Positions 2,751 to 49,174 of a DNA stretch of 64,000 nt are shown one piece after another. The notes under the pieces were generated by a model that saw only the letters and a list, made by a program, of their open reading frames with translations, did not search any database and had not been told where the DNA came from. Both the position numbers and the translations under genes were made by a program. The stretch lies in NCBI RefSeq assembly GCF_056746865.1, contig NZ_CM163382.1; one strand, written 5' to 3'. Every line of letters starts with the position of its first letter. Within the stretch, counting starts at the first letter, position 1.

Positions 2751-3465
2751 TGCACAGAAAACCCCCAGCTAGGCTGGGGGTTCCGGAAAGCTTTCAGCTT
2801 TGAGCCAGTTATTAAAACCCCTTTTGATTTGTTAAAACACCTTGCGGTCTGGCAACTGCAAGTGTCAAACAAGAAATCAAAAGGGGGTCCCAATGGGGAA
2901 CGAAAAGAGCTTAGCGCACACCCGATGGAACTGTAAATATCACATAGTTTTTGCGCCAAAATACCGAAGACAGGTGTTCTACAGAGAGAAGCGTAGAGCA
3001 ATAGGCAGTATTTTGAGAAAGCTGTGTGAGTGGAAAAGCGTACGGATTCTGGAAGCTGAATGCTGTGCAGATCATATCCATATGCTTGTGGAGATCCCGC
3101 CTAAAATGAGCGTATCCGGGTTTATGGGATATCTGAAAGGGAAAAGCAGTCTGATGCTTTACGAGCAGTTTGGTGATTTGAAATTCAAATACAGGAACAG
3201 GGAGTTCTGGTGCAGAGGGTACTACGTCGATACAGTGGGTAAGAACACGGCGAAGATACAGGATTACATAAAGCACCAGCTTGAAGAGGATAAAATGGGA
3301 GAGCAGTTATCGATTCCCTATCCGGGCAGCCCGTTTACGGGCCGTAAGTAACGAAGTTGGATGCAAATGTCAGATCGTGTGCGCCTGTTAGGGCGCGGCT
3401 GGTAAGAGAGCCTTATAGGCGCATTTGAAAAACCTCCGGCTATGCCGGAGGATATTTATTTAGTT
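2751..3465 (+). mobile_element. IS200-type element (IS200/IS605 family); ends approximate
   Basis: About 710 bp extra DNA between fabF and pabC; perfect 8-bp/3-nt-loop hairpins near both ends (2762-2780 and 3433-3451); RBS-sequestering stem-loop (2818-2886) just before the tnpA start. Confidence 0.7.
2893..3351 (+). CDS. tnpA: IS200 transposase TnpA (Y1 HUH type, 152 aa)
   Basis: Product MGNEKSLAHTRWNCKYHIVFAPKYRR...HIHMLVEIPP... matches the recalled IS200 TnpA sequence; HUH motif (HIH) present. Confidence 0.9.
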   Translation: MGNEKSLAHTRWNCKYHIVFAPKYRRQVFYREKRRAIGSILRKLCEWKSVRILEAECCADHIHMLVEIPPKMSVSGFMGYLKGKSSLMLYEQFGDLKFKYRNREFWCRGYYVDTVGKNTAKIQDYIKHQLEEDKMGEQLSIPYPGSPFTGRK

Positions 3466-37889: not shown

Positions 37890-37981
37890 TGATAAACCTC
37901 ATTACAGATTTAAGGGTGAACAAATCCCTGCCATTGCTGGCATTTTTAATCCGTTGGTATGGTGTTAATATGGCTGGAGGG

Positions 37982-38170
37982 TTATCCAGCCGGTGTTTCG
38001 TTATTCAGGTACAGCGATACTTTTTTTACCGGGAGGCATTCACCAGAAATTTTTTGCTCGTCTCTTGCCTGGAGGCAGGATTCTTTACTGGCATAAATTC
38101 CGGTAATCACATTCTGTGATTCACCCGTTATAAGAAAAACCGTCATCATCAGTGCAAATGCTGAAGTCAT
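37982..38170 (-). CDS. hypothetical small protein with hydrophobic N-terminus
   Basis: 62-aa ORF whose start overlaps the stop of the upstream 62-aa ORF (ATGA). Confidence 0.35.
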   Translation of the reverse strand: MTSAFALMMTVFLITGESQNVITGIYASKESCLQARDEQKISGECLPVKKVSLYLNNETPAG

Positions 38171-38355
38171 TGACGCTCTCCGAAAATACCAAGTTCAAGA
38201 AGAGCAATTCGGGAAAGTATGGAATTATCATTGAGCAGATAAGGCTCATATTTCCTCATATTAATGGCATCTTCAGTAAACTCCCGGTTACTGAGCAGAA
38301 CACCAATATCAAAACAACCTTCAGACGTATTAACGTTTGGTAATAACGTTTCCAT
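38167..38355 (-). CDS. hypothetical small protein
   Basis: 62-aa ORF with GAGGA 7 nt upstream of ATG; first gene of a coupled pair. Confidence 0.35.
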   Translation of the reverse strand: METLLPNVNTSEGCFDIGVLLSNREFTEDAINMRKYEPYLLNDNSILSRIALLELGIFGERQ

Positions 38356-38895
38356 TATCGCGTCCTCAACAATGAATTTTGTGATGCAGTGCCTGGTGCC
38401 TCCAGGTGACGTTAACCAGTTAACAATTAACGCCGGGTTAGTTGATGCTCGTTACGCCAGTAAAAGACCGCCTTACTGCTTTAACTGTTCCGCGTGCGCA
38501 TAGCCGCATTCACCGCATCACAAAATTCACTTTAAAAAGGGCGGCAGAGCAGTCACGGAGTAAAACTGATACCGCCAAACGTCACCAGAAAATTGATAAC
38601 AGAGGGCGTTGCAGCGGGGTTGTCACTTAAGCGTATGGTCAACCTGACAACCCGGTGTCCTCAACGGGGAAGGAATAACCCCGTCATACTTACCGCCGCG
38701 CCATTTCGCGGAGTGTCACAACCGGAAGCGCACGGTCGACGAAAATTTAACGACAGGCTATCTATGAACCAGCTACCTCGCCGTGCGCTTTCGCGTTATG
38801 GTCTGACTTTTCATGGAAATATCCTTTCAGTAAACTGTCAGTGCCGGATTCTTATCCGTGTCCGGCGCACGCACTCTACCTCACCTGTGAATAAA

Positions 38896-39270
38896 TTAAT
38901 GATTAATTGATATTTTGTTGTTTGATTCAACTTTCCCATCGGATGTGTGATGCTTTAAATCACAGGAATTAATACTGCTTGCTGTAAAATGATTTTCAAG
39001 GGGAGCTATTCGAATCCCTTTCTTTTTCATTAACAAGCCAAATCCTTTATTAATGATGTCCATTAATTCCAGAAAGTATTTTTCATGTAAATCCTGGTTA
39101 TCAGAGAGCTGCTTCTCTTCGTACAGCCCGATAAAGGCTCGGCGTACGTTACCGGATATATTGTCGATGGTTTCTTTTTCTACGGTACTCAGGTCAAGAG
39201 TCGCCAGTTGAGAGCGAACCACATTCGCTGCCATTTCCTGGAATGGCATTGGTAAATCTTTAAATTCCAT
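38896..39270 (-). CDS. hypothetical early-left protein (AT-rich gene)
   Basis: 124-aa ORF in a leftward gene string downstream of the OL region. Confidence 0.45.
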   Translation of the reverse strand: MEFKDLPMPFQEMAANVVRSQLATLDLSTVEKETIDNISGNVRRAFIGLYEEKQLSDNQDLHEKYFLELMDIINKGFGLLMKKKGIRIAPLENHFTASSINSCDLKHHTSDGKVESNNKISINH

Positions 39271-39292
39271 TATTAGCCTCGTTGGTTAGCTA

Positions 39293-39511
39293 TTAACGCG
39301 GGTATGTAATCATTCTGGCAATGCTTAATGCCGCTGCTTTTTCCAGCCTGGTGATATCCTGCTCCAGAGCGGACAGATTTTCAGCCTGCTTAGCCCTGGC
39401 TTCATTGGCCCATTTCAGGTCCTGCGCAGCCTTAATTTTCTGGTGTATCCACTCATAAAGTTCATCATCGGTATAGTCTGGCGCGATGATGACGGGTTCT
39501 CGTTTCTGCAT
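39293..39511 (-). CDS. hypothetical coiled-coil small protein
   Basis: 72-aa ORF, leftward early region. Confidence 0.45.
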   Translation of the reverse strand: MQKREPVIIAPDYTDDELYEWIHQKIKAAQDLKWANEARAKQAENLSALEQDITRLEKAAALSIARMITYPR

Positions 39512-39540
39512 ACTGATTCCTCGCGGTGCTGTTTCGCTTA

Positions 39541-39669
39541 TCAGCCGTTAGATTTTGCCGAACTGGAAAGCGCCTGTTTAAACTCACTGAAGCTGAGGGC
39601 TTCTTCGCCTTCGGCAAGGCCTTCGAAGTATTCTTCGTAAGCCTTTTCCATGATTGTGTTGAAATCCAT
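39541..39669 (-). CDS. hypothetical 42-aa acidic protein
   Basis: ORF MDFNTIMEKAYEEYFEGLAEGEEALSFSEFKQALSSSAKSNG found by manual translation; below the track's 60-aa cutoff. Confidence 0.3.
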   Translation of the reverse strand: MDFNTIMEKAYEEYFEGLAEGEEALSFSEFKQALSSSAKSNG

Positions 39670-39670
39670 A

Positions 39671-39907
39671 TCACTCACCTGAGTTTCTTTCCAGCCAGCG
39701 ACGGGCACCATTTTCGGTTTTAAACGTTTTGCTTTTGGTATACGTCATCGCGGTGAACGTACCGTCCTGGTTGGGGAACACGCCACATACCAGAGATTCG
39801 CTGTTGCCAAGATCGATAGTATCCATGCTGACCTCATTTCCCCTTAACGCCGGGGTAGCGGAACAAAAACCTGCTGCATAGTTATTAAAGTTGAACCCTG
39901 CCGTCAT
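39671..39907 (-). CDS. hypothetical early-left protein
   Basis: 78-aa ORF; true start may be the internal Met (MDTIDLG...). Confidence 0.4.
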   Translation of the reverse strand: MTAGFNFNNYAAGFCSATPALRGNEVSMDTIDLGNSESLVCGVFPNQDGTFTAMTYTKSKTFKTENGARRWLERNSGE

Positions 39908-40010
39908 GTTCTTACGCCTCGGGCTGGCTACTTAACCCCTGACCACTGCCGGGTAACTCGAAGTATTTCCCTGCGTTCTGTGGGGCGGGGTGGGTTGGTA
40001 TGTTGTTAAT

Positions 40011-40024
40011 GTAACAAGAGTTAC
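40011..40024. promoter_or_regulatory. candidate left operator (OL) site
   Basis: GTAACAAGAGTTAC matches the GTAAC-N4-GTTAC dyad also found twice in the cI-cro intergenic region. Confidence 0.5.
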
Positions 40025-40062
40025 CTTTCGAGTCAATACAATGTTGCAAAAGGTACATTTGA

Positions 40063-40093
40063 GGGCATAAAAAACCCGCAATGAATGCGGGTT
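40063..40093 (-). terminator. intrinsic terminator immediately downstream of cI
   Basis: Hairpin aacccgca-atgaa-tgcgggtt with U-run on the minus-strand transcript, 5 nt after the cI stop. Confidence 0.6.
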
Positions 40094-40098
40094 CTGAC

Positions 40099-40773
40099 TC
40101 AGTCTAAGTATTGATGTATTTGTGAAACTTTACCTTTAATGGTGTAACCACCATTCAGTTCGATGGGTTTGTAAAGCGGATTCAGTGACAACAAATAGAT
40201 GTTTGGTCCGTCAATCGCAACTTTTTTTAGTGTTACGTTTGGCGTTCCTTCCAATTGGATTAAGATTATTTTTCCCACCAGTTCTCTAATGTTACTTGAG
40301 CATGGTGTGATCAGCACGGTAGATCCGTCGGGGATGGTTGGGAGGCCGTTAGAGTTTGTCATCGCATCTCCCTCAACATGCAATAAAAAAGAGTTTTCAG
40401 CGGTTTTTGTCATGACATCAACCCAGTTATTAATACCAGGAATCTTGGTTACTGGACAACTCATATCCCAATAACCAGCCTGTTCCCACGTTAAAACGGG
40501 CAACCGGGCGATGTTGTCACTAATGTAAGGGTACTGATTCAGACGCAGATCATCGGTTTTATCGTGACAGTCCTTTCCATAAAGAATCCATTCAGGAGAT
40601 TTGGAAAGCAATTTTGACAGTAGATACAAATTCTCACCGTCAGGTTTTGAAGAGCCATTTTCCCATTTTGTTACGGATACACGAGATATGCCGATTGCTT
40701 TCGCAACCTGCTGTTGGGTTAATCCAACGTCTTTTCGACGATTCCGAATACGTTCGCTGATAGTGTTTTTCAT
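40099..40773 (-). CDS. cI: CI-type prophage repressor (N-terminal HTH plus C-terminal S24 LexA-like peptidase)
   Basis: HTH LTQQQVAKAIGISRVSVTKWENG; S24 domain with catalytic GDAM serine context and a downstream Lys; start trimmed to MKNTISER... leaving a 91-bp operator region before cro. Confidence 0.85.
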   Translation of the reverse strand: MKNTISERIRNRRKDVGLTQQQVAKAIGISRVSVTKWENGSSKPDGENLYLLSKLLSKSPEWILYGKDCHDKTDDLRLNQYPYISDNIARLPVLTWEQAGYWDMSCPVTKIPGINNWVDVMTKTAENSFLLHVEGDAMTNSNGLPTIPDGSTVLITPCSSNIRELVGKIILIQLEGTPNVTLKKVAIDGPNIYLLSLNPLYKPIELNGGYTIKGKVSQIHQYLD

Positions 40774-40835
40774 GTAACCAATGTTACTACCAAGTGATGT
40801 TGCTATGGTTGACATTGTTATGTAACTATTGTTAC
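40774..40835. promoter_or_regulatory. right operator region (OR) with two dyad sites between cI and cro
   Basis: GTAACCAATGTTAC (40774-40787) and GTAACTATTGTTAC (40822-40835); consensus -35 TTGACA at 40809-40814. Confidence 0.55.
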
Positions 40836-40864
40836 CCTTCTGCTCGAAATAACAGGAGAGTTTT

Positions 40865-41080
40865 ATGTTCAAAGATGATGTTCTGCGCTATTTCAAAAAA
40901 AAGCGACTAGTAGCTGAGGCTCTTGGAATTTCACATGTGGCTGTTGTGCGGTGGAAAGCAGTTATTCCCAAACTTCGCGCAATGGAACTGGATGAAATTA
41001 CTAACGGTGAATTGAAATACAACCCAGAACTTTACAAGAAGCAGGATAGCACCTCGAACGAAGGAAAGAATGATTCATGA
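40865..41080 (+). CDS. cro: Cro-like HTH regulator
   Basis: 71-aa ORF divergent from cI across the operator region; HTH AEALGISHVAVVRW. Confidence 0.7.
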   Translation: MFKDDVLRYFKKKRLVAEALGISHVAVVRWKAVIPKLRAMELDEITNGELKYNPELYKKQDSTSNEGKNDS

Positions 41081-41502
41081 AAATCAAGCATGAACACATC
41101 CGCATGGCGATGAATGTCTGGGCGCATCCGGACGGCGAAAAAGTACCGGCTGCGAAAATTACCAAAGCGTATTTCGAGCTGGGAATGACGTTCCCGGAAC
41201 TGTATGACGACAGCCATCCGGAAGCCCTGGCCCGTAATACCCAGAAAATTTTCCGTTGGCTGGATAAAGACACCCCTGATGCTGTTGAAAAAATGCAGGC
41301 TCTGTTACCGGCGATCGAAAAGGCGATGCCGCCTTTGCTGGTGGCCCGTATGCGCAGCCACAGTTCTGAATATTACCGTGAGATCGTCGAACGGAGGGAT
41401 CGGCTGGTGAAGGATGTCGATGATTTTGTTGCGTCAGCGGTTGTTTTGTATGACCAGATGAATCGCGGCGGCCCGGCAGGGAATGCTGTGGTGATGCACT
41501 AA
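41077..41502 (+). CDS. CII/YdaT-like early regulatory protein
   Basis: 141-aa ORF directly after cro (ATGA overlap), in the position of Rac ydaT / lambda cII; sequence similarity not verified. Confidence 0.45.
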   Translation: MKIKHEHIRMAMNVWAHPDGEKVPAAKITKAYFELGMTFPELYDDSHPEALARNTQKIFRWLDKDTPDAVEKMQALLPAIEKAMPPLLVARMRSHSSEYYREIVERRDRLVKDVDDFVASAVVLYDQMNRGGPAGNAVVMH

Positions 41503-41524
41503 AAGCACGGTGTTCGGGGGTTTT

Positions 41525-42487
41525 ATGAGCAGCAAGCTTCATGGTCTTGTCTGGGAAGGGTGCGCCTTCACCGGCATGATCTTATCCAGGGTGGCGGTTA
41601 TGGCCCGTCTTGCAGACTACAGCAATGACGAGGGCGTGTCATGGCCTGCCATTGAAACTATCCGGCGTCAGATCGGTGCAAGAAGTGAATCCACAGTGAA
41701 ATCGGCTATTGCAGAACTGGCGAAAGAGGGCTGGCTGACGAAGGAAGAGCGTAAGGTCGGTGGGCGTAATGTAAGCAATATCTATCGGCTTAATGTGGAA
41801 AAACTCGAAGCAGCTGCGGCGGCGGCGCGTGAGTCATATAAACCGAAAAGAAAAATTAGCCCGGCAAAAAATGACCCGTTAACAGTTGACCCGTCAAATA
41901 TTGACCCCTCAACGGTTGACCCGTCAAATTTTGATGGATCAACTGTTGATAAAAAACTGCCGATTAGGGGGGCGATGATTGACCCCGATCCGTCAGTATT
42001 AAAACCTGATCCGTCAGATAAAAGATCTTCTTGTCCGGACGCTTCGCAACCGGACCCGCAGACGGCTGAACAGGATTTTTTAACCCGACACCCTGACGCG
42101 GTTGTGTTCAGTGCGAAAAAACGCCAGTGGGGAAGTCAGGAAGATTTGGTGTGCGCACAGTGGATCTGGGGACGAATCGTGAGTCTTTACGAGCAGGCGG
42201 CCAGCGATGATGGCGAGATCACTAGACCGAAAGAACCCAACTGGACAGCATGGGCCAATGACGTTCGCACAATGCGGATGCTGGATGGCAGAACTCACAG
42301 ACAAATTTGTGAAATGTTTGGGCGTCTCCAGCGGGATTCGTTCTGGGTAAAAAACATCATGAGTCCGGCAAAACTCCGGGAAAAATGGGATGAACTGGTT
42401 ATCCGCCTGGGGCGTTCGCCTGCGCAGCGTTGCGTGAATCACATTTCTGAACCGGACACTGAAATACCGCCGGGATTCAGGGGGTGA
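41525..42487 (+). CDS. replication initiation protein (O-like / YdaU-like)
   Basis: N-terminal winged-helix region; internal tandem DP(S/L)xV repeats encoded by iterons; followed by a DnaC-like loader; ATG at 41525 preferred over GTG at 41510. Confidence 0.7.
   Translation: MSSKLHGLVWEGCAFTGMILSRVAVMARLADYSNDEGVSWPAIETIRRQIGARSESTVKSAIAELAKEGWLTKEERKVGGRNVSNIYRLNVEKLEAAAAAARESYKPKRKISPAKNDPLTVDPSNIDPSTVDPSNFDGSTVDKKLPIRGAMIDPDPSVLKPDPSDKRSSCPDASQPDPQTAEQDFLTRHPDAVVFSAKKRQWGSQEDLVCAQWIWGRIVSLYEQAASDDGEITRPKEPNWTAWANDVRTMRMLDGRTHRQICEMFGRLQRDSFWVKNIMSPAKLREKWDELVIRLGRSPAQRCVNHISEPDTEIPPGFRG
41870..41944. repeat. origin-type iterons: five tandem 15-bp repeats, each an internal TTGAC..GTCAA dyad
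   Basis: atgacccgttaacag / ttgacccgtcaaata / ttgacccctcaacgg / ttgacccgtcaaatt / ttgatggatcaactg at 15-bp phase inside the initiator gene. Confidence 0.65.
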
Positions 42488-42493
42488 CGTGTC

Positions 42494-43240
42494 ATGAAAA
42501 ACATTGCGGCAGTTGGGGTTCTTGAACGTATTCGCAGACTTGCACCACAGGGGTCGGTTCCACCGTACCGGACGGTGGAGGAGTGGCGGGAATGGCAACT
42601 TGCTGAAGGACGAAAACGCAGCGAGGAGATTAACCGCCAGAATCGCCAGTTGCGGGTGGAAAAAATCCTGAATCGTTCGGGCATCCAGCCTCTGCACAGC
42701 AAATGCTCGTTTGCAAATTATCAGGTGCAGAACGACGGGCAAAAATACGCGCTGAGCCAGGCCAAATCCATAGCTGACGAACTGATGACCGGGTGCACGA
42801 ATTTTGTGTTCAGCGGTAAAACCGGCACCGGGAAAAATCACCTTGCAGCGGCGATGGGCAACCGGCTGATGGTGAAGGGGCGCAGCGTGATTATCGTCAC
42901 CGTGTCTGACGTCATGAGCGTGTTGCATGACAGCTACGACAACGGCAAATCCGGGGAAAAATTTTTACAGGAGCTTTGCGGGGTTGATTTGCTGGTCCTG
43001 GATGAAATAGGCGTTCAGCGGGAGACGAAAAACGAGCAGGTGGTATTGCACCAGATAATTGATCGCCGGACAGCATCACTGTGCAGTGTCGGGATGTTAA
43101 CAAACCTGAATCATGCCGCAATGAGTACGCTTCTTGGTGAGAGGATTATGGACCGCATGACCATGAACGGTGGTCGATGGGTGACGTTTAACTGGGATAG
43201 CTGGCGTCCAAATGTCAGCAATATGAGGGTTGTGAAGTAA
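42494..43240 (+). CDS. DnaC-like helicase loader (IstB-type AAA+ ATPase)
   Basis: Walker A GKTGTGKNHLAAA and Walker B LLVLDEIG. Confidence 0.85.
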   Translation: MKNIAAVGVLERIRRLAPQGSVPPYRTVEEWREWQLAEGRKRSEEINRQNRQLRVEKILNRSGIQPLHSKCSFANYQVQNDGQKYALSQAKSIADELMTGCTNFVFSGKTGTGKNHLAAAMGNRLMVKGRSVIIVTVSDVMSVLHDSYDNGKSGEKFLQELCGVDLLVLDEIGVQRETKNEQVVLHQIIDRRTASLCSVGMLTNLNHAAMSTLLGERIMDRMTMNGGRWVTFNWDSWRPNVSNMRVVK

Positions 43241-43261
43241 TTTTGTCCGGAGGAAATTTTA

Positions 43262-44032
43262 ATGGAAACCGTATCTGACGCACTGAAAGCACTGAAAAAA
43301 GCCTCTTCACATGTGGTGGCAGCTCGCCTTGGAATCAGTCGTGAAGAGGCTGTCAACGAGCTGTGGGAACTCAAAAGAAATGGCGTCGTTGATAAAACTG
43401 GTCACACCTGGTTTCTGGCTGGCGAAGGTGAATCCCGGGTAACCGAAGAGCGGCCAGTAAAATCTGAAGCACAGGATATGCTGACCGGGGAGGTCGAACA
43501 AAAAGTTACCGCAGACATGATGATTGAGTTTATCGGTCAGGATGGGGCTAAAACGTGTGAGGAACTGGCGGGTAAGTTCGGTGTCAGTACTCGCAAGGTT
43601 GCTTCCACGCTGGCGGTGGTAACCGCAACGGGGCGGCTGGCACGCGTTAATCAGAACGGTAAATTTCGTTACTGCATGCCGGGCGATAATTTACCAGCAG
43701 AGCCGAAAGCCGCGCTGGTAACGGAAAGTGATGGTAAGGCCTTTCCTCAGCCAGCAGGTGCTGCGTTACCAGGCCGGGAAGCCGCAACACAGGAAGAAAT
43801 TAAAACAGAAACTGTGGCGGACATTGTGCAGTCGTTGCCATCGTTTACCGAAACGCAAGCAGATGAGCTGATTTTTCCGTCCCTGCGCAGGGCAAACCTG
43901 GCGCTGCGCAGGGCGAAAAGTGATGTTCAGAAGTGGGAGCGAGTCTGCGCCGCGCTGCGGGAGCTGAACAAGCACCGGGATATTGTTCGACAGATTACTG
44001 ATTCTTCCCGCCGTGTTGTATCGGAAAAGTGA
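43262..44032 (+). CDS. hypothetical phage protein
   Basis: 256-aa ORF with AGGAGG-like RBS; N-terminal region may be winged-helix. Confidence 0.55.
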   Translation: METVSDALKALKKASSHVVAARLGISREEAVNELWELKRNGVVDKTGHTWFLAGEGESRVTEERPVKSEAQDMLTGEVEQKVTADMMIEFIGQDGAKTCEELAGKFGVSTRKVASTLAVVTATGRLARVNQNGKFRYCMPGDNLPAEPKAALVTESDGKAFPQPAGAALPGREAATQEEIKTETVADIVQSLPSFTETQADELIFPSLRRANLALRRAKSDVQKWERVCAALRELNKHRDIVRQITDSSRRVVSEK

Positions 44033-44047
44033 TTGCCGGAGGCGCTT

Positions 44048-44470
44048 ATGGCAAAAGTATTTACACAAGAAGAGCGGGAAAAAATTAAAGGGCAGGTTGT
44101 TGAACTTGTACGTCTGAGCGGTCGCGAGACGTTGCGGCAACTGGAAGCCAAGACAGGTGCGACAAGATATCTGATGAGTGTTCTCGCCAGAGAGCTGGTT
44201 GCCAGTGGCGATGTATACAACTCTGGTTACGGGTTATTCCCGTCTGAACAGGCGCGTAAGGACTGGCAAAACGCCCGCAAAAAACTCTCAAGGGCAAATC
44301 TGAAGAAACCATCTGTGGTTGATCCTGACCTTATCTGGCCATTACCAGACGGCGAAATACGCCGCTACGACAGGCGTCAAAACATAATCTGTAGCGAGTG
44401 CCGGAAGAGCGAAGCTATGCAGCGTGTACTGGCTTTCTATCAGGGTAATTTTCAGAAGGTGCTGTTGTGA
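44048..44470 (+). CDS. hypothetical phage protein
   Basis: ATG 7 nt after GGAGG; track ORF 44033-44470 begins at an upstream TTG. Confidence 0.5.
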   Translation: MAKVFTQEEREKIKGQVVELVRLSGRETLRQLEAKTGATRYLMSVLARELVASGDVYNSGYGLFPSEQARKDWQNARKKLSRANLKKPSVVDPDLIWPLPDGEIRRYDRRQNIICSECRKSEAMQRVLAFYQGNFQKVLL

Positions 44471-44575
44471 GCCAAATTAACAATCGGAACTTCGTGAAGA
44501 GAAAGCATAATCCAAATCTGAATAATTAAGTTCAGCACTGTAAATAAAATTTAATCCTTAACTGGAGGTATATCT

Positions 44576-44689
44576 ATGTCAAATACACAGAAAATTATTA
44601 ACACTGAAAAATATAACGAGTGGGTGAAAAATTCTCTGAGCAGATTTTTAAAATTACTGGCGACGAGAATGTGGCAAAAAATGAATTAG
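44576..44689 (+). CDS. hypothetical 37-aa ORF
   Basis: ATG 8 nt after GGAGG at the end of repeat motif copy A; an overlapping alternative frame exists. Confidence 0.25.
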   Translation: MSNTQKIINTEKYNEWVKNSLSRFLKLLATRMWQKMN

Positions 44690-44819
44690 AACCGTGGACA
44701 CCTGAAGGAAACGCACCAAATTATTGCTGGTGGGAGGTTGATCCGGTTGATGCTGCAAATGAAGCCATGAGTTACCACAACGATTAATGTCGGGAGGCCG
44801 CCCGAAAGGGCGGTAAGAA

Positions 44820-45038
44820 ATGACTACATTATTCAGAAAAGAATATCCGCAAAAAAGTAGGGCGACAGAATTTTTGTTTCTCATTCTGTTTATCGTATTG
44901 ATGATACCGATATCCCCTCTAATTTTTGTCTGGGCAATCGGGAAAATAATTGAGCCAGTTTCTGAATTGTATAACGACGTGGTGTGGGCGTCATTCAACA
45001 CACTGCACAATAAAATTAATCCGTATAAGGAAAACTGA
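44820..45038 (+). CDS. small hydrophobic protein
   Basis: 72-aa ORF preceded by SD-hairpin element copy 1; one predicted TM segment. Confidence 0.5.
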   Translation: MTTLFRKEYPQKSRATEFLFLILFIVLMIPISPLIFVWAIGKIIEPVSELYNDVVWASFNTLHNKINPYKEN

Positions 45039-45039
45039 T

Positions 45040-45243
45040 ATGGCAACTTTGACAAAAAAAGAACGGGCATGGTTGAACGAATTACAGGAAGTTCTTGATC
45101 GCTGTCCATCACCGAAAAAATTGGCTTTTACACCATTGGCGATAAAAGCATTTACCTGTATGACCTACGCCGCATGGATGAAATCATGGAGGCTCTTGAT
45201 AATCGTTCGTCGATGGATTGGTGTGTTGCTGTTCATGATATGA
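45040..45243 (+). CDS. hypothetical protein, possibly frameshifted
   Basis: MATLTKKERAWLNELQEVLDRCPSPKK...; a protein-like continuation exists in another frame to 45302. Confidence 0.3.
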   Translation: MATLTKKERAWLNELQEVLDRCPSPKKLAFTPLAIKAFTCMTYAAWMKSWRLLIIVRRWIGVLLFMI

Positions 45244-45433
45244 ATGCAGGGTTTGATGAAAAGATTTTGTTCCCCTCATCAGTTGAAAGCACTGCGGGTT
45301 AAGGAGTAACACATGACCACTATTACCAAAGAACGTATTGAATTGTTCATTAAATTTTCAGGAGGCGGTACTGTGAGTGAAATTAGCTATCAGGCTTCAA
45401 TTACCGCTGGCATTCGCATCAAAGGAGAGGAGC

Positions 45434-45790
45434 ATGGAAATAAAACCAGAGGATGAGTTAAGCAATATCGTTTTATTTCCGGTAAAAGAGGATGACCCTC
45501 GTAATCAGGTTAATTTTCTTTATGAGCCATCGGAAAGACCATATTGTCATCACGCCTCTGTCCGGGTTGACGAAAAAGAGCGTCAGGTCCGCTGTAAAAT
45601 CTGCGGTGCAGTTGTGGAACCATTTGACTGGATGCTCTCTGTGGCGAAAAGAGAAACCAGACTGGCAGATGATGTAAGGCTCTTGCGTCAGGAGGAGCGG
45701 GAAAGGCGAAAAAATATAGAAAAGCTAATTCAGATTGAGCGTAACGCGAAAGCGCGGATACGCAGGGCGACAAAATCCAGAACTGAATAA
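45434..45790 (+). CDS. hypothetical Cys/His-containing protein
   Basis: ATG after AAGGAGAGGAG; product has CHH...C..C cluster (putative zinc site). Confidence 0.5.
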   Translation: MEIKPEDELSNIVLFPVKEDDPRNQVNFLYEPSERPYCHHASVRVDEKERQVRCKICGAVVEPFDWMLSVAKRETRLADDVRLLRQEERERRKNIEKLIQIERNAKARIRRATKSRTE

Positions 45791-45883
45791 TTAAATTTAG
45801 CTCTGTTAAAAATTTAATCCTTAACCGGAGGGATTTCTGCACCCTCAGAACATCAGGAGGCCGCCCGAAAGGGCGGTAGTTAA

Positions 45884-46066
45884 ATGCGAAAGTTTAAAAT
45901 AATTATTGAAACGGGAATAGCCGGTGGAGATTTCGAGGATGAATTCGAAGTGGATGATGATGCGACGCCTGATGAAATACATGACGAAGCAAAAGATATT
46001 TTCTTTAACTACTGCAATTACTCATATCACGAAATAAAAGACGAAGAGGAAGAACAAAATGGCTGA
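45884..46066 (+). CDS. small acidic protein
   Basis: 60-aa ORF preceded by SD-hairpin element copy 2. Confidence 0.5.
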   Translation: MRKFKIIIETGIAGGDFEDEFEVDDDATPDEIHDEAKDIFFNYCNYSYHEIKDEEEEQNG

Positions 46067-46235
46067 TTTTGGTTCAACTAAATACAACGTCGGTTTTGAA
46101 GAATGGCATGAACTGTTAATGGACTATGCAGAGTTACGTGGTGGCAGTGCTGCTGATGCTGAAGCATGGCGTGATGATTATGAAGCAGGAAAAACTCCGG
46201 TCGAAGCATATTGTGATGAGTGGGGCGATGAATGA
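46059..46235 (+). CDS. hypothetical 58-aa protein
   Basis: Manual translation MADFGSTKYNVGFEEWHELLMDYAELRGGSAADAEAWRDDYEAGKTPVEAYCDEWGDE; start overlaps the preceding stop. Confidence 0.3.
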   Translation: MADFGSTKYNVGFEEWHELLMDYAELRGGSAADAEAWRDDYEAGKTPVEAYCDEWGDE

Positions 46236-46717
46236 GCGAGGTTAATTATCAGGAAGGGCATGAAACGGCGGGGCAAGCAAAAACAGTGGCATGGCGATAT
46301 CGCTACGTGAAAAAAAGGCGTTACGGACTTTCAGGGGAAGTAGTGGTCTGGTGACTGGAAATATGTACCGAAAAAAGAGGATTGTAACGACAGGCCGAAC
46401 TATGAAATTCAGGCCTTATTCACTGCCCCGCCAGTCCCGGTTACATCAGAAGAACTGGTTAAAGCTGTGCACTTTTATGAACAACTAAAATGCGAAAATC
46501 CACCAGCATCCGGAAACCTGATTACAGATTCCCAGATAAGGCAATGAGCTACCTGGCGCAGAACGGGCTGATAAGTATGGGGAATGTTTTACGATGAATA
46601 TTTAGACTAAAGAGTTTGTAACGCTATGTAAGTGATTTTTTCTGGTTTAGATATTTATATGTCCGGCTAAATTGAGGTGTGTTTAAATGTTATTGCACAT
46701 TGATTGTAGGGGGAATA

Positions 46718-46897
46718 ATGAAAAACGCATTGCAGTTTTTGTTTGTTGCGTTCTGGTTGTTCGCATCATGTATGCCCATCATCTTCACAGCAAGGTATAT
46801 GGAAAAAGTTGATGTTTTGATATTAATGTTTGGACATATAAATGCCCTTTTTTTAGGGGTGTTCATGGCGGTCATGTGCATTGAATACTGGCGGTAA
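46718..46897 (+). CDS. small membrane protein (AT-rich gene)
   Basis: ATG after AGGGGGAATA; product MKNALQFLFVAFWLFASCMPIIF... with two hydrophobic segments. Confidence 0.4.
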   Translation: MKNALQFLFVAFWLFASCMPIIFTARYMEKVDVLILMFGHINALFLGVFMAVMCIEYWR

Positions 46898-47155
46898 ATA
46901 CAGCGAACGCCATTGGTTTAGTTGGATATTTACTGTGCCGGACAAAAACGGTTTGCGGGGAAATCTTAGTTAAGTAGAATGACTGCGGGTGCTTGAGGCT
47001 ATCTGTCTCAGGCATGAACACCAAAAGGCAGATAGAGAAAAGCCCCAGTTAACATTACGCGTCCTGCAAGACGCTTAACATTAATCTGAGGCCATATCTA
47101 TGCGACACATAGAGATTAGCCTCTTACGGACCGAAAGGTCAAGGAGAAGCAGGCT

Positions 47156-47311
47156 ATGAAGCAGCAAAAGGCGATGTTAATCGCCCTGATCGTCATCTGT
47201 TTAACCGTCATAGTGACGGCACTGGTAACGAGGAAAGACCTCTGCGAGGTACGAATCCGAACCGGCCAGACGGAGGTCGCTGTCTTCACAGCTTACGAAC
47301 CTGAGGAGTAA
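47156..47311 (+). CDS. hok: Hok/Gef-family type I toxin (51 aa)
   Basis: MKQQKAMLIALIVICLTVIVTALVTRKDLCEVRIRTGQTEVAVFTAYEPEE matches the recalled HokD/RelF sequence; short overlapping upstream ORF 47100-47159 (mok-like); 3' stem-loop 47319-47340. Confidence 0.8.
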   Translation: MKQQKAMLIALIVICLTVIVTALVTRKDLCEVRIRTGQTEVAVFTAYEPEE

Positions 47312-47478
47312 GAGACCAGGCGAGGGGGAAATCCCTCGCCACCTCTGATGAGTCAGGCATCCTCAACGCACCCGCACTTAACCCGCTTCGGCGGGTTTTG
47401 TTTTTTCCTGGCATTCTGGTTTACAATTCGCACGTCAGCCTGAACACCTGACACCTGCTGCGCCAGTAGAGAAAACAG

Positions 47479-47751
47479 ATGGCGCACAAAACCAAATTTC
47501 ACAATTCTGATACCGACCTTGCCATCCGGCATGGGCGGCGTTCACACGCATTTAAAACCGACTGGTACCAACACCCACCATGTACTGAAGAACAGGCCGA
47601 ATGGCTAATTCATAACTACCGCAGACGCGGATACGAGATTAAGAAAGCCCTCAGCCTCGATTATCGTCACTGGATAATCTATGTCAGGCTCCCTTATTCC
47701 GAACGCTCACCGCGCCCATCCCGCACATTCCAGCAACGCATCTGGAGGTAA
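47479..47751 (+). CDS. hypothetical protein (Rem-position)
   Basis: 90-aa ORF between hok and the DUF968 gene, the position of rem in the Qin hokD-rem-ydfU arrangement. Confidence 0.45.
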   Translation: MAHKTKFHNSDTDLAIRHGRRSHAFKTDWYQHPPCTEEQAEWLIHNYRRRGYEIKKALSLDYRHWIIYVRLPYSERSPRPSRTFQQRIWR

Positions 47752-47752
47752 C

Positions 47753-48802
47753 GTGCGGATATTACTTCGACCTGTTCTGGTACCGGAACTCGGGCTGGTG
47801 GTCCTTAGGCCGGGCCGTGAATCCATGCCGGTATTCCACAATACCCGGGTACTGGTGGAGCCTGAACCGAAAAGCATGCACGGTCTGCCGTCCGGAGTCG
47901 TCCCTGCCGTTCGCCAGCCGCTGGCGGAGGATAAATCATTTCTGCCATTTTTCAGCGATGAGCGGGTGATTCGTGCTGCTGGCGGCGCTGGGGCACTGTC
48001 TGACTGGCTGTTGCGTCATGTCAAATCCTGCCAGTGGCCTCATGGTGACTATCATCACAGTGAAATCGTCATACATCGTTACGGTACCGGCGCGATGGTG
48101 TTGTGCTGGCACTGCGACAACCAGTTGCGCGACCAGACCTCCGAATCACTCGGGCAACTTGCTCATCAAAACCTGTCAGCATGGATGATTGACGTCATAC
48201 GCCATGCAATGAATGGCACGCAGGAGCGGGAATTGTCGCTGGCTGAATTATCCTGGTGGGCGGTCCGCAATCAGGTGGCGGACGCGCTACCGGAAGTGGT
48301 ATTACGTCGTTCGCTGGGGTTGCGTGCGGAAAAAATCCGCTCAATGTACCGTGAAAGCGACATCGTACCGGGAGAGCAGACCGCCACCAGCATACTGAAA
48401 CAGCGCACAAAAAATATTGCGCCGCTGCCTCACGCCCACCAGCAACAGAACCCACCACAGGAAAAGACGGTGGTCAGCATTGCCGTTGATCCTGAGTCTC
48501 CGGAATCTTTCATGAAACGACCTAAACGTCGCCGCTGGGTTAACGAGAAATACAAACGCTGGGTGAAGACACAGCCGTGTGCGTGTTGTGGTAAGCCAGC
48601 CGACGATCCCCATCACCTGATTGGTCATGGTCAGGGCGGAATGGGGACAAAATCTCACGATATTTTCACGCTACCGCTGTGTCGGGAGCATCACAACGAG
48701 CTTCATGCGGATCCTCTGGCGTTCGAACAAAAGCATGGTTCTCAGGTTGATTTAATTTTTCGTTTTCTTGATCACGCCTTTGCAACTGGCGTGCTTGGGT
48801 AA
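47753..48802 (+). CDS. DUF968-family (YdfU-like) protein with C-terminal Cys/His motif
   Basis: GTG start 3 nt after GGAGGTA; C-terminal ...CACCGKPADDPHHLIGHGQGGMGTKSHDIFTLPLCREHHNELH; track ORF 47681-48802 is an upstream extension. Confidence 0.7.
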   Translation: MRILLRPVLVPELGLVVLRPGRESMPVFHNTRVLVEPEPKSMHGLPSGVVPAVRQPLAEDKSFLPFFSDERVIRAAGGAGALSDWLLRHVKSCQWPHGDYHHSEIVIHRYGTGAMVLCWHCDNQLRDQTSESLGQLAHQNLSAWMIDVIRHAMNGTQERELSLAELSWWAVRNQVADALPEVVLRRSLGLRAEKIRSMYRESDIVPGEQTATSILKQRTKNIAPLPHAHQQQNPPQEKTVVSIAVDPESPESFMKRPKRRRWVNEKYKRWVKTQPCACCGKPADDPHHLIGHGQGGMGTKSHDIFTLPLCREHHNELHADPLAFEQKHGSQVDLIFRFLDHAFATGVLG

Positions 48803-48814
48803 AAGAGGTGACTG

Positions 48815-49174
48815 ATGCTCATAGATTTGGTTTTACCTTACCCGCCGACGGTGAACACTTACTGGCGACGCCGTGGCAGCACATATTTTATTTCGGAGGA
48901 GGGAAAGCGTTATCGCCGGGCTGTGGCGCTTATTGTTCGCCAGCAGCGGCTGAAATTAAGCCTGTCCGGAAGGCTGGCGATAAAGGTGATTGCAGAGCCA
49001 CCGGATAAGCGTCGTCGCGACCTGGACAATATCCTGAAAGCACCGCTGGATGCGCTGACGCATGCGGGAGTGTTAATGGACGATGAGCAGTTTGATGAAA
49101 TCAATATTGTACGTGGTCAGCCAGTATCTGGTGGACGGCTGGGTGTGAAGATTTACAAAATTGAGAGTGAGTGA
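48815..49174 (+). CDS. rusA: RusA Holliday-junction resolvase
   Basis: 119-aa ORF with RusA signature ...DKRRRDLDNILKAPLDALTHAGVLMDDEQ... Confidence 0.85.
   Translation: MLIDLVLPYPPTVNTYWRRRGSTYFISEEGKRYRRAVALIVRQQRLKLSLSGRLAIKVIAEPPDKRRRDLDNILKAPLDALTHAGVLMDDEQFDEINIVRGQPVSGGRLGVKIYKIESE

What the first reader, a model, noticed from the sequence alone, without database searches (positions are those of the whole stretch)
47100..47340. hok/mok-type type I toxin module in the nin region
A 51-aa ORF (47156-47311), below the ORF-track cutoff, matches my recollection of HokD/RelF. It has a short overlapping upstream reading frame (47100-47159) ending across the hok start, direct repeats TTAACATTA flanking an inverted repeat just upstream, and a 3' stem-loop (47319-47340). 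No relBE-like genes accompany it, unlike the Qin arrangement. A functional Hok would need an antisense Sok-like RNA from the opposite strand, which is not annotated here.
Basis: partly seen in the sequence, partly recalled or inferred. Interest (0 to 1): 0.4.

Follow-up and report, generated by a model that had tools for sequence, protein, structure and literature searches.

The report
Complete hok/mok/sok toxin–antitoxin locus in prophage
This is an ordinary, apparently intact copy of the well-known hok/sok killer-gene module, the full-length form of E. coli hokD and a close relative of phage 933W hokW-sokW, sitting between the replication genes and the Q-like gene of a lambda-like prophage.

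Summary
ORF 47156-47311 encodes a 51-aa Hok/Gef protein (Pfam 82.9 bits). It carries the same RefSeq protein accession as K-12 HokD. It comprises a hok promoter, a ~415-nt mRNA starting at G46987, a 5'/3' locking helix, a 19-codon mok frame, hok, a 3' protective hairpin and a terminator.

The leader scores 106.7 bits against Rfam RF01794 (threshold 59). It aligns with the annotated sokW of phage 933W, which has been tested experimentally.

K-12 hokD is a 5'-truncated derivative of this kind of locus. Its homology begins only at window position 47142.

The locus is very common: 4954 of 5426 complete E. coli genomes match, and identical DNA is already annotated as hokD.

Two side observations:
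- This copy has a minority mok form whose UGA stop overlaps the hok AUG.
- The predicted Sok 5' tail and its target are hypervariable among otherwise near-identical loci. This may mark specificity classes, but that is untested.

Verdict: already known, low interest.

The parts
46953..46980 (+). Putative hok promoter: -35 TTGCGG (46953-58), 16-nt spacer, -10 TAGAAT (46975-80), six nt before G46987.
   Evidence: Read from the sequence. The -10 and its flank are conserved in 933W and Rac442. The consensus scan did not report it because the -35 matches only 3 of 6. Inferred.
46987..47403 (+). Full-length hok (mok-hok) mRNA, about 415 nt.
   Evidence: The Rfam RF01794 model starts at 46987 and the terminator is at 47380-47397. 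MFE is -171.9 kcal/mol, z = -7.7 against shuffles. 96.8% of pair cells are kept across 66 related loci, against about 40% for slid controls.
46987..46998 (+). tac element (GGGUGCUUGAGG), the 5' end of the mRNA.
   Evidence: It pairs with fbi in the full-length fold and with ucb in the 3'-truncated fold. It is invariant across relatives.
47040..47046 (+). ucb / anti-SD box (AAGCCCC). Its 47042-47046 part (GCCCC) sequesters the mok SD in the full-length fold.
   Evidence: Helix 4 pairs GCCCC with GAGGC (the mok SD). In the truncated RNA, AAGC.CCC pairs with tac instead.
47049..47083 (.). TTAACATTA direct repeats (47049-57, 47075-83) flanking the GCGTC/GACGC inverted repeat. Together they form the apical extension of the leader/Sok hairpin.
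   Evidence: This is an insertion relative to the Rfam consensus and to R1. It is present in 61 of 66 related loci; the other five carry different hairpin sequences here.
47088..47091 (+). mok Shine-Dalgarno sequence, GAGG.
   Evidence: It lies 8 nt upstream of the mok ATG and is invariant in relatives.
47100..47159 (+). mok leader frame: 19 codons (MRHIEISLLRTERSRRSRL), with its UGA overlapping the hok AUG.
   Evidence: It aligns with the annotated mokW of 933W and mok of Rac442. This form was found in 18 of 76 full-leader loci.
47038..47106 (-). sok antisense RNA gene, about 69 nt: a 13-14 nt single-stranded 5' tail, a long hairpin and a UUUUCUCU tail.
   Evidence: The coordinates are transferred from the annotated sokW of AF125520. 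The fold is -29.8 kcal/mol, z = -4.4. It lies inside the Rfam RF01794 match. Transcription is not shown here.
47113..47142 (-). Putative sok promoter: -35 TTGACC (47142->47137), 18-nt spacer, -10 TAATCT (47118->47113), with +1 near G47106.
   Evidence: Read from the sequence. It is positionally homologous to the sokW promoter, whose -10 mutation abolished antitoxin activity (PMC8621323). The consensus scan did not report it because the -10 matches only 3 of 6. K-12 hokD lacks this region.
47141..47146 (+). hok Shine-Dalgarno sequence, AAGGAG.
   Evidence: It is nearly invariant across relatives, including R1.
47156..47311 (+). hok toxin gene: 51 aa, same RefSeq protein accession as K-12 HokD, 47/51 identical to HokW.
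47294..47297 (+). UACG motif at the Tyr47 codon, a candidate TadA A-to-I recoding site (Tyr->Cys).
   Evidence: The TTACGAA sequence is invariant across the window, 933W, Rac442, R1-like and K-12 loci. Editing of hokD at the equivalent position is reported in bioRxiv 10.1101/2025.08.07.668861. Not tested here.
47319..47340 (+). 3' stem-loop (GGCGAGGGG GAAA UCCCUCGCC), the counterpart of the hairpin that ends and protects the processed mRNA in R1.
   Evidence: Its stem varies among relatives while staying paired: A-U, G-U and G-C occur at one pair. The R1 precedent is in PMC9841398.
47361..47373 (+). fbi element (CCUCAACGCACCC). It pairs with tac over 12 bp with one bulged C.
   Evidence: The duplex is -21.5 kcal/mol and lies +49..+63 after the stop codon. 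The same position is used in 933W and hokC, and R1 uses a compensated pairing (GGCGCUU/AAGCGCC). 99.5% of cells are paired in 66 loci.
47380..47406 (+). Intrinsic terminator of the hok mRNA.
   Evidence: It is the only terminator-like site found in 46600-47800 and is conserved in most relatives.

Best explanation
The region 46953-47406 is a complete, self-contained hok/mok/sok type I toxin-antitoxin locus of the hokD/hokW subfamily. It is carried as a moron in the nin region of a lambdoid prophage.

**Proposed mechanism**
1. A weak promoter makes a stable ~415-nt hok mRNA. Its 5' end (tac) pairs with fbi near the 3' end. In this locked form the ucb box sequesters the mok ribosome-binding site, so nothing is translated.
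2. Slow 3' trimming back to the 47319-47340 hairpin removes fbi. tac then pairs with ucb and the mok SD is freed.
3. The ~69-nt Sok RNA is made from the opposite strand inside mok. Its single-stranded 5' tail binds the mok start region. This blocks mok translation, and therefore the coupled hok translation, and marks the duplex for RNase III.
4. If sok transcription stops, the labile Sok decays and ribosomes translate the 19-codon mok. They terminate on the UGA that overlaps the hok AUG, and the membrane-depolarising Hok is made. Triggers could be loss of the prophage, transcription shut-off, or prophage induction.

**Shown versus inferred**
- Shown here: the family membership of the protein and the leader RNA, all sequence elements, and the predicted conformational switch.
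- Inferred from R1 hok/sok and Sp5 hokW-sokW: transcription, RNA processing, toxicity in this context, and the biological role. The candidate roles are prophage addiction, help with lysis on induction, or abortive infection.
For: - **Toxin.** Pfam HOK_GEF scores 82.9 bits and PHROG 251 scores 114.7 bits. The protein has the same RefSeq accession as K-12 HokD.
- **Leader RNA.** Rfam RF01794 scores 106.7 bits against a gathering score of 59, covering the full model and ending at the hok AUG.
- **Closest characterised relative.** The locus is 90.4% identical over 92% of its length to the 933W locus, which is annotated mokW/hokW/sokW.
- **Locked form.** The full-length MFE has the tac-fbi helix and ucb-SDmok pairing, with z = -7.7.
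- **Switch.** Removing the 3' 57 nt switches the MFE to tac-ucb pairing.
- **tac-fbi conservation.** The duplex sits at the same offset in 933W and hokC and is compensated in R1.
- **Structure conservation.** 96.8% of pair cells are kept in 66 distinct loci, against about 40% for slid controls. There are 7 pairs with double-sided changes; none of 500 shuffles reached that number.
- **Sok.** The Sok strand folds as a tail plus hairpin plus U-run, z = -4.4.
- **Experimental precedent.** HokW is toxic. sokW, transcribed from its own promoter, neutralises it. Sok disappears and HokW appears on prophage induction (PMC8621323).
- **mok requirement.** In R1, mok must be translated only up to the hok initiation region (PMC9841398).
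Against: - No expression data exist for this locus.
- Both promoters are weak matches: the sok -10 matches 3 of 6 with an 18-nt spacer, and the hok -35 matches 3 of 6. The consensus scan reported neither.
- The mok frame is the minority short form (18 of 76 loci). Its stop lies exactly at the hok start. In R1, stops upstream of the hok AUG abolish Hok synthesis and stops after it do not, so this boundary case is untested.
- Chromosomal hok loci tested earlier did not mediate post-segregational killing (summarised in bioRxiv 10.1101/2025.08.07.668861).
- The host prophage shows decay, with frameshifted small genes and an IS3 insertion.
- The covariation evidence within the subfamily is thin, because the sequences are 94% identical and the tested structure was derived from the window itself.
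Confidence: 0.85

Rival explanations
1. The locus is a silent relic. Its sequence elements are retained by recent common descent, but it no longer kills or is no longer regulated, like the inactivated chromosomal hok loci of K-12. The cause could be the 2-nt deletion and 1-nt insertion that shorten mok to 19 codons, or weak promoters.
For: - The short mok is a minority form.
- The sok -10 matches only 3 of 6, the spacer is 18 nt, and the scan did not report the promoter.
- The prophage carries frameshifted genes and an IS3 element.
- Truncated hok loci, either relE-fused or cut by a transposase gene, occur in 7 of 83 sampled copies.
- Earlier chromosomal loci failed post-segregational killing tests.
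Against: - Every element defined in R1 is present and pairs as predicted.
- The exact window-type leader recurs at 95% identity or more in about 800 of 5426 complete E. coli genomes and in 18 of 76 IMG/VR loci. That would be unexpected for a dead allele.
- The hok coding sequence is intact and nearly invariant.
- A stop overlapping the hok AUG still lets ribosomes cross the hok SD, which is the requirement found in R1.
Confidence: 0.12
2. Hok here is expressed mainly as a passenger of the phage early-right transcript rather than from its own promoter. Read-through from upstream of the locus would give a 5'-extended RNA. That RNA could not form the tac-fbi lock and would collide with sok transcription. 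Hok would then act as an induction-timed lysis helper, comparable to K-12 where hokD is the third gene of relBEF.
For: - hok lies on the same strand as the cro, O/P-like and Q-like genes.
- No terminator-like site was found between 46600 and the locus.
- In Sp5, sokW vanishes and HokW appears only on RecA-dependent induction and speeds lysis.
- In K-12 the truncated hokD sits directly behind relBE.
Against: - The locus keeps its own promoter-like -10, a conserved 5' end and its own terminator.
- In 933W the homologous locus lies elsewhere in the genome, near the right end and on the record's minus strand. The module therefore works independently of nin-region transcription.
- This reading adds to the main mechanism rather than replacing it.
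Confidence: 0.03

Closest known systems
hokW-mokW-sokW of Stx2 phage 933W / Sakai prophage Sp5 (AF125520; Takada et al. 2021, PMC8621323)
   Same: The DNA is 90.4% identical over 92% of the locus, and Hok is 47/51 identical. The tac, ucb, extended Sok hairpin with TTAACATTA repeats, mok start position, hok SD, 3' hairpin and fbi are all shared. Both score above threshold on RF01794. The 933W/Sp5 locus is an experimentally validated type I TA system.
   Different: - mokW is in frame with hokW (57-nt offset, 70 aa), whereas the window has a 56-nt offset and a 19-codon mok ending on the hok AUG.
- The predicted Sok 5' tail and target sequence differ: cognate duplex -22.6 kcal/mol, against -6.7 (window tail on the 933W target) and -11.6 (933W tail on the window target).
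- The sok promoter has TTGACC/18 nt/TAATCT, against a 17-nt spacer and TAACCT.
- The 933W copy lies near the right end of the phage genome rather than in the nin region, and it lacks the window's terminator hairpin.
hokD (relF) of the E. coli K-12 Qin prophage, third gene of relBEF
   Same: The protein has the same RefSeq accession. The DNA is 97.7% identical from just upstream of the hok SD through the 3' hairpin, fbi and terminator. The downstream neighbourhood is the same (DUF968/ydfU, then a Q-type gene).
   Different: K-12 homology starts only at window 47142. K-12 therefore lacks the hok promoter, tac, ucb, mok, the Sok target and the sok gene and promoter, and it has relB-relE in their place. 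The window holds the complete form.
hok/mok/sok (parB) of plasmid R1, the paradigm of the family
   Same: The architecture and element order are the same. The leader matches the same Rfam model. tac-fbi pairing occurs at a similar distance after the stop codon. The hok SD, the TTACGAA motif and the 3' hairpin are conserved.
   Different: - Hok is about 45% identical.
- R1 mok is 70 codons, out of frame and overlapping hok (58-nt offset).
- R1 has a short Sok hairpin without the 17-nt GC-clamped extension and has a longer first stem-loop.
- R1 is plasmid-borne, with a proven post-segregational killing role.
hokC/mokC (gef) chromosomal locus
   Same: The 5' end is the same (GGGUGCUUGAGGC), fbi lies at the same offset, and it scores 122 bits on RF01794. 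The DNA is about 83-85% identical over the hok region.
   Different: It sits at a fixed chromosomal site next to dnaJ rather than in a prophage, and its leader hairpin sequences differ.

Membership tests
[quoted passage not shown] | A small Hok/Gef-family membrane toxin ORF of about 50 aa. | tested here: met
   PF01848 scores 82.9 bits against a cut-off of 22. The protein has the same RefSeq accession as K-12 HokD.
[quoted passage not shown] | The 5' leader of the hok mRNA matches the family covariance model (RF01794, which covers the Sok-complementary region). | tested here: met
   106.7 bits against a gathering score of 59, model positions 1-157, at 46987-47158 on the + strand.
[quoted passage not shown] | An upstream mok frame with its own SD, whose translation reaches the hok initiation region. 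| tested here: met
   GAGG at 47088-91, ATG at 47100, 19 codons, and a UGA overlapping the hok AUG. It aligns with annotated mokW and mok. This is a length variant; functional coupling was not tested.
[quoted passage not shown] | A cis-encoded antisense Sok RNA gene, with promoter and terminator, complementary to the mok initiation region. | tested here: inconclusive
   Sequence homology to the annotated sokW maps it to 47106->47038. It folds as a tail, hairpin and U-run. A TTGACC/18 nt/TAATCT promoter is readable, but the consensus scan did not report it. There are no transcript data.
[quoted passage not shown] | Long-range tac/fbi pairing between the 5' end and the 3' UTR. | tested here: met
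   The helix is 12 bp with one bulge and appears in the MFE. The duplex is -21.5 kcal/mol at +49..+63 after the stop codon, the same place as in 933W and hokC, and R1 uses a compensated pairing. 99.5% of cells are paired in 66 loci.
[quoted passage not shown] | ucb sequesters the mok SD in the full-length RNA, and tac-ucb pairing forms after 3' truncation. | tested here: met
   This rests on in-silico folds only: the full-length fold and the 46987-47346 fold. The model follows PMC9841398.
[quoted passage not shown] | Hok is toxic, Sok neutralises it, Sok is labile and the hok mRNA is stable. | not testable with these tools
   This is shown only for the homologues HokW/sokW and R1. That K-12 HokD/RelF is toxic on overexpression is from my own knowledge.
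relBEF (relB-relE-hokD) operon arrangement of Qin | relB and relE lie immediately upstream of hokD and replace the hok leader. | tested here: not met
   The upstream 1.2 kb holds only small hypothetical or DUF ORFs. The K-12 locus has relBE and aligns only from window 47142 onward.
isrK Hfq-binding sRNA (RF01394) | A match at or above the Rfam gathering score. | tested here: not met
   26 bits against a gathering score of 50 at 47320-47401. The match consists of the 3' hairpin plus the terminator.

The most novel reading that the evidence does not exclude
The roughly 20-nt patch at 47093-47113 may be a specificity determinant that has diversified. The patch covers the mok start and its upstream spacer, and corresponds to the predicted single-stranded 5' tail of Sok plus the stretch between the sok -10 and +1. 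If so, the several hokD/hokW-type copies carried by different prophages in one cell would not protect each other, making each prophage's addiction or trigger module orthogonal.

Evidence so far:
- Among loci with identical Hok there are at least 12 patch types, including indels, while the hok coding sequence is nearly invariant.
- Cognate tail-target duplexes are -22.6 to -30 kcal/mol, and non-cognate ones are -3.5 to -21.
- E. coli genomes carry a median of 2 and up to 10 copies.
- In 7 same-genome groups, co-resident copies always differed in type, but this is not statistically significant.
- The rest of Sok is almost identical between types, so cross-reaction may still occur.
Probability: 0.3. 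Interest if true: 0.5.

Novelty: already known. Interest (0 to 1): 0.15.

Why it matters
The finding matters little as a discovery. Identical DNA is already annotated as hokD in RefSeq, the family has an Rfam model, a Pfam model and a PHROG, and a 90%-identical phage locus has been characterised experimentally.

Its practical value is for annotation. RefSeq records label only the toxin ORF, while the mok frame, the sok gene and the mRNA boundaries are left unmarked. PGAP also calls a 59-aa ORF on the opposite strand across the hok 3' UTR.

It also shows plainly that K-12 hokD is a 5'-truncated derivative of a locus that is complete in most other E. coli.

The one thread that could repay follow-up is the hypervariable Sok tail and target, which might explain how many hok/sok copies coexist in one genome.

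Tried and rejected
- **Promoter scan.** The consensus promoter scan of 46600-47800 reported neither the hok nor the sok promoter. Both are therefore assigned by position and homology only.
- **isrK.** The sub-threshold isrK hit (26 bits against 50), along with the snoRNA and rsmX hits, was rejected as hairpin-plus-terminator noise.
- **MITE or transposon scar.** I considered whether the TTAACATTA repeats mark a miniature insertion (a target-site duplication around a 17-bp palindrome). The block is an insertion relative to R1 and to the Rfam consensus. It is fixed in the subfamily and forms a GC-clamped extension of the Sok hairpin. Its origin was left open and its function is taken to be structural.
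- **Covariation within the subfamily.** The sequences are 94% identical, so most pairs never vary. The support is preservation of pairing plus a few compensatory pairs, and the tested structure came from the window itself.
- **Co-residence test of patch types.** Only 8 same-genome pairs were available and all were discordant. The expected concordance is only about 0.13, so the result is not significant.
- **Type-specific megablast.** A 60-nt type-specific search could not resolve the places within each genome by type. A second IMG/VR scan used a pattern that selected only the GGTC-spacer types and was capped at 120 rows.
- **Other copies.** No second hok copy exists in the window.
- **Neighbouring ORFs.** Pfam and PHROGs searches of the 72-aa upstream ORF gave nothing.

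Full report
**Observation**

The window contains a 51-aa ORF at 47156-47311 (+), MKQQKAMLIALIVICLTVIVTALVTRKDLCEVRIRTGQTEVAVFTAYEPEE. It scores 82.9 bits on Pfam HOK_GEF, E 1.2e-23, and 114.7 bits on PHROG 251, 'MokW-like host killing', in the moron category.

The window is 100% identical over 18,471 bp (37950-56420) to the chromosome of E. coli CFSAN061770. In that record PGAP annotates this ORF as hokD, with protein accession WP_000813254.1. K-12 HokD carries the same accession.

- The 19-codon upstream frame runs 47100-47159, and its TGA overlaps the hok ATG.
- The TTAACATTA direct repeats lie at 47049-57 and 47075-83, slightly off the implied position. They flank GCGTC/GACGC.
- The 9-bp stem-loop lies at 47319-47340.

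No relBE lies upstream. The gene order is LexA-like repressor, cro, ydaT, O/P-like genes, small ORFs, hokD, DUF968, RusA, DUF1133 Q-like gene, holin, lysozyme. This places the locus in the nin-equivalent region of a lambdoid prophage.

**What the unit really is**

An Rfam search places family RF01794 ('sok') at 46987-47158 on the + strand. It scores 106.7 bits against a gathering score of 59, covers the full model, and ends exactly at the hok AUG. That model describes the hok mRNA leader, including the Sok-complementary part.

The only terminator-like site in 46600-47800 is at 47380-47397, followed by a T-run. This gives a ~415-nt mRNA.

Folding 46987-47403 gives -171.9 kcal/mol, z = -7.7. In this fold:
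- The first 12 nt (GGGUGCUUGAGG, tac) pair with CCUCAACGCACCC at 47361-47373 (fbi).
- The GCCCC box at 47042-46 (ucb) pairs with the mok Shine-Dalgarno GAGG(C) at 47088-92.

Folding the RNA truncated just after the 47319-47340 hairpin changes the MFE. tac now pairs with AAGC.CCC (ucb), and the mok SD is released from it. This is the conformational switch described for R1 hok mRNA, involving tac/fbi, ucb and 3' processing (PMC9841398).

The tac-fbi duplex is -21.5 kcal/mol and lies +49..+63 after the stop codon. It sits at the same offset in 933W hokW and in chromosomal hokC. In an R1-like plasmid locus it is GGCGCUU/AAGCGCC, a compensated version.

**The sok gene is present**

Phage 933W (AF125520) annotates mokW, hokW and a 71-nt sokW antisense RNA. 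The window is 90.4% identical to that locus over 92% of its length. Transferring the coordinates through the alignment puts sok at 47106->47038 on the minus strand, and the mok and hok starts at exactly 47100 and 47156.

Upstream of that start on the minus strand I read:
- -35 TTGACC (47142->47137)
- an 18-nt spacer
- -10 TAATCT (47118->47113)
- +1 near G47106

The consensus scan did not report this pair, because the -10 matches only 3 of 6.

The predicted Sok RNA has a 13-14 nt unpaired 5' tail, a long hairpin and a UUUUCUCU tail (-29.8 kcal/mol, z = -4.4).

For the Sp5/933W homologue, Takada et al. showed the following (PMC8621323):
- HokW is toxic.
- sokW, expressed from its own promoter, neutralises it.
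- Mutating the sokW -10 abolishes protection.
- Prophage induction removes sokW, and HokW then accumulates in the inner membrane.
- Deleting the locus delays growth arrest and halves phage release.

**Relation to K-12 hokD**

A megablast search of complete E. coli genomes finds matches in 4954 of 5426 genomes, and 3905 have at least 80% coverage. The median is 2 places per genome and the maximum is 10.

K-12 matches only from query position 193, which is window 47142, just upstream of the hok SD. Upstream of that point K-12 has relB-relE. K-12 hokD therefore lacks the hok promoter, tac, ucb, mok, the Sok target and the sok gene. It keeps hok, the 3' hairpin, fbi and the terminator.

The missing relBE is thus the normal state, and Qin is the rearranged one. 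Of 83 sampled copies encoding this Hok or HokW, 76 have the full leader. Five have the relE junction, and two are cut at almost the same point with a transposase gene upstream.

**Variation among relatives**

Sixty-six distinct full-length loci are 94% identical on average. The window's predicted structure is preserved in them: 96.8% of pair cells are standard pairs, against 35-43% for slid controls. Seven pairs show double-sided changes, and none of 500 shuffles reached that number. The structure was derived from the window itself, and most pairs never vary.

Two features stand out.

1. *The mok frame comes in three forms*:
   - 54 of 76 loci are in frame with hok (57-nt offset, 70 aa, as annotated for mokW).
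   - 4 of 76 are out of frame and overlapping, as in R1 (58-nt offset, 68 aa).
   - 18 of 76, including the window, are a 19-codon frame whose UGA overlaps the hok AUG (56-nt offset).

   This fits the R1 result that only translation up to the hok initiation region matters. The window's boundary case has not been tested.

2. *Variability peaks sharply at 47093-47113*. This stretch is the mok start plus the predicted Sok 5' tail and the sok -10-to-+1 spacer. It occurs in at least 12 sequence types, including indels, while the hok coding sequence is almost invariant. Assuming +1 lies 7 nt after the -10, 11 of 12 types start with G. Cognate tail-target duplexes are -22.6 to -30 kcal/mol, and non-cognate ones are -3.5 to -21.

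Because the Sok 5' tail initiates recognition in R1 (my own knowledge of Thisted et al. 1994), these types may be specificity classes. In 7 same-genome groups, co-resident copies always differed in type, but the expected concordance is only about 0.13, so this is not a test. I could not run a proper co-residence analysis. I found no paper addressing this question. A recent survey of Hok diversity states that Mok and Sok were not analysed.

**Mechanism and role**

The best reading is a standard hok/mok/sok circuit:
1. A stable, locked hok mRNA is made.
2. Slow 3' trimming activates it.
3. A labile Sok blocks mok-coupled hok translation.
4. Hok is produced when sok transcription ceases.

The steps shown here are family membership, all sequence elements, and the predicted switch. 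Transcription, processing, toxicity in this context and the biological role are inferred.

The candidate roles are prophage addiction, help with lysis on induction (the HokW precedent), or abortive infection (the R1/T4 precedent).

The main rival is that this allele is a silent relic. In its favour are the weak promoter matches, the short mok and a decaying prophage. Against it are the completeness of the elements and the wide recurrence of exactly this allele, which is found at 95% identity or more over the type-specific 60 nt in about 800 complete genomes.

**Verdict**

The element is already known and already annotated, so interest is low. The only non-trivial lead is the hypervariable Sok tail and target.

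Noticed in passing
window 47093-47113, and loci L003-L085: A hypervariable patch covers the mok start and the predicted Sok 5' tail. It occurs in at least 12 sequence types, including indels, among loci whose Hok protein is identical. These may be Sok specificity classes.
   Followed up: partly
window 47100-47159, and 76 related loci: Three mok configurations coexist in one subfamily. In 54 loci mok is in frame with hok, in 18 it is a 19-codon frame ending on the hok AUG (the window's form), and in 4 it is out of frame and overlapping as in R1.
   Followed up: yes
window 47294-47297: A UACG motif sits at the Tyr47 codon within an invariant TTACGAA. This is the reported TadA A-to-I recoding site (Tyr->Cys) of hok family mRNAs. 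It is conserved in the window, 933W, Rac442, R1-like and K-12 loci.
   Followed up: no
window 47353-47532 (-): PGAP annotates a 59-aa 'hypothetical protein' on the strand opposite the hok 3' UTR, fbi and terminator. It matches PHROG 2947 (151 bits, unknown function). It may be an over-call that is propagated because the hok 3' UTR is conserved.
   Followed up: partly
L013 and L057 (IMG/VR), about 1430-1500: Two hok copies are truncated just upstream of the hok SD, within a few nt of the K-12 relE junction. Upstream of the breakpoint lies a 362-aa gene on the opposite strand (L013 341-1429) whose sequence I read as a transposase; I did not confirm this with a family search, and I checked the ORFs in L013 only.
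   Followed up: partly
window 38539-38590 (-) and 38167-38355 (-): A DicF antisense RNA (Rfam, 76.7 bits) lies next to dicB, so the prophage has a Qin/Rac-type dicB-dicF region.
   Followed up: no
window 51650-51854 (+) and 50296-51524: An STnc100 sRNA match (133.5 bits) lies just downstream of an IS3-family transposase insertion and upstream of iraM, between the Q-like gene and the lysis genes.
   Followed up: no
window 2760-2883 (+): An STnc490 Hfq-binding sRNA match (146.4 bits) lies far from the prophage region. Its context was not examined.
   Followed up: no
window 46679-46897 (+): An unannotated 72-aa hydrophobic ORF sits in an AT-rich stretch just upstream of the hok promoter. It has no Pfam or PHROG match.
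   Followed up: partly
window 44576-46597: Several small genes upstream of hok are annotated as frameshifted or carrying an internal stop in the identical RefSeq record. This suggests the prophage is partly decayed.
   Followed up: no
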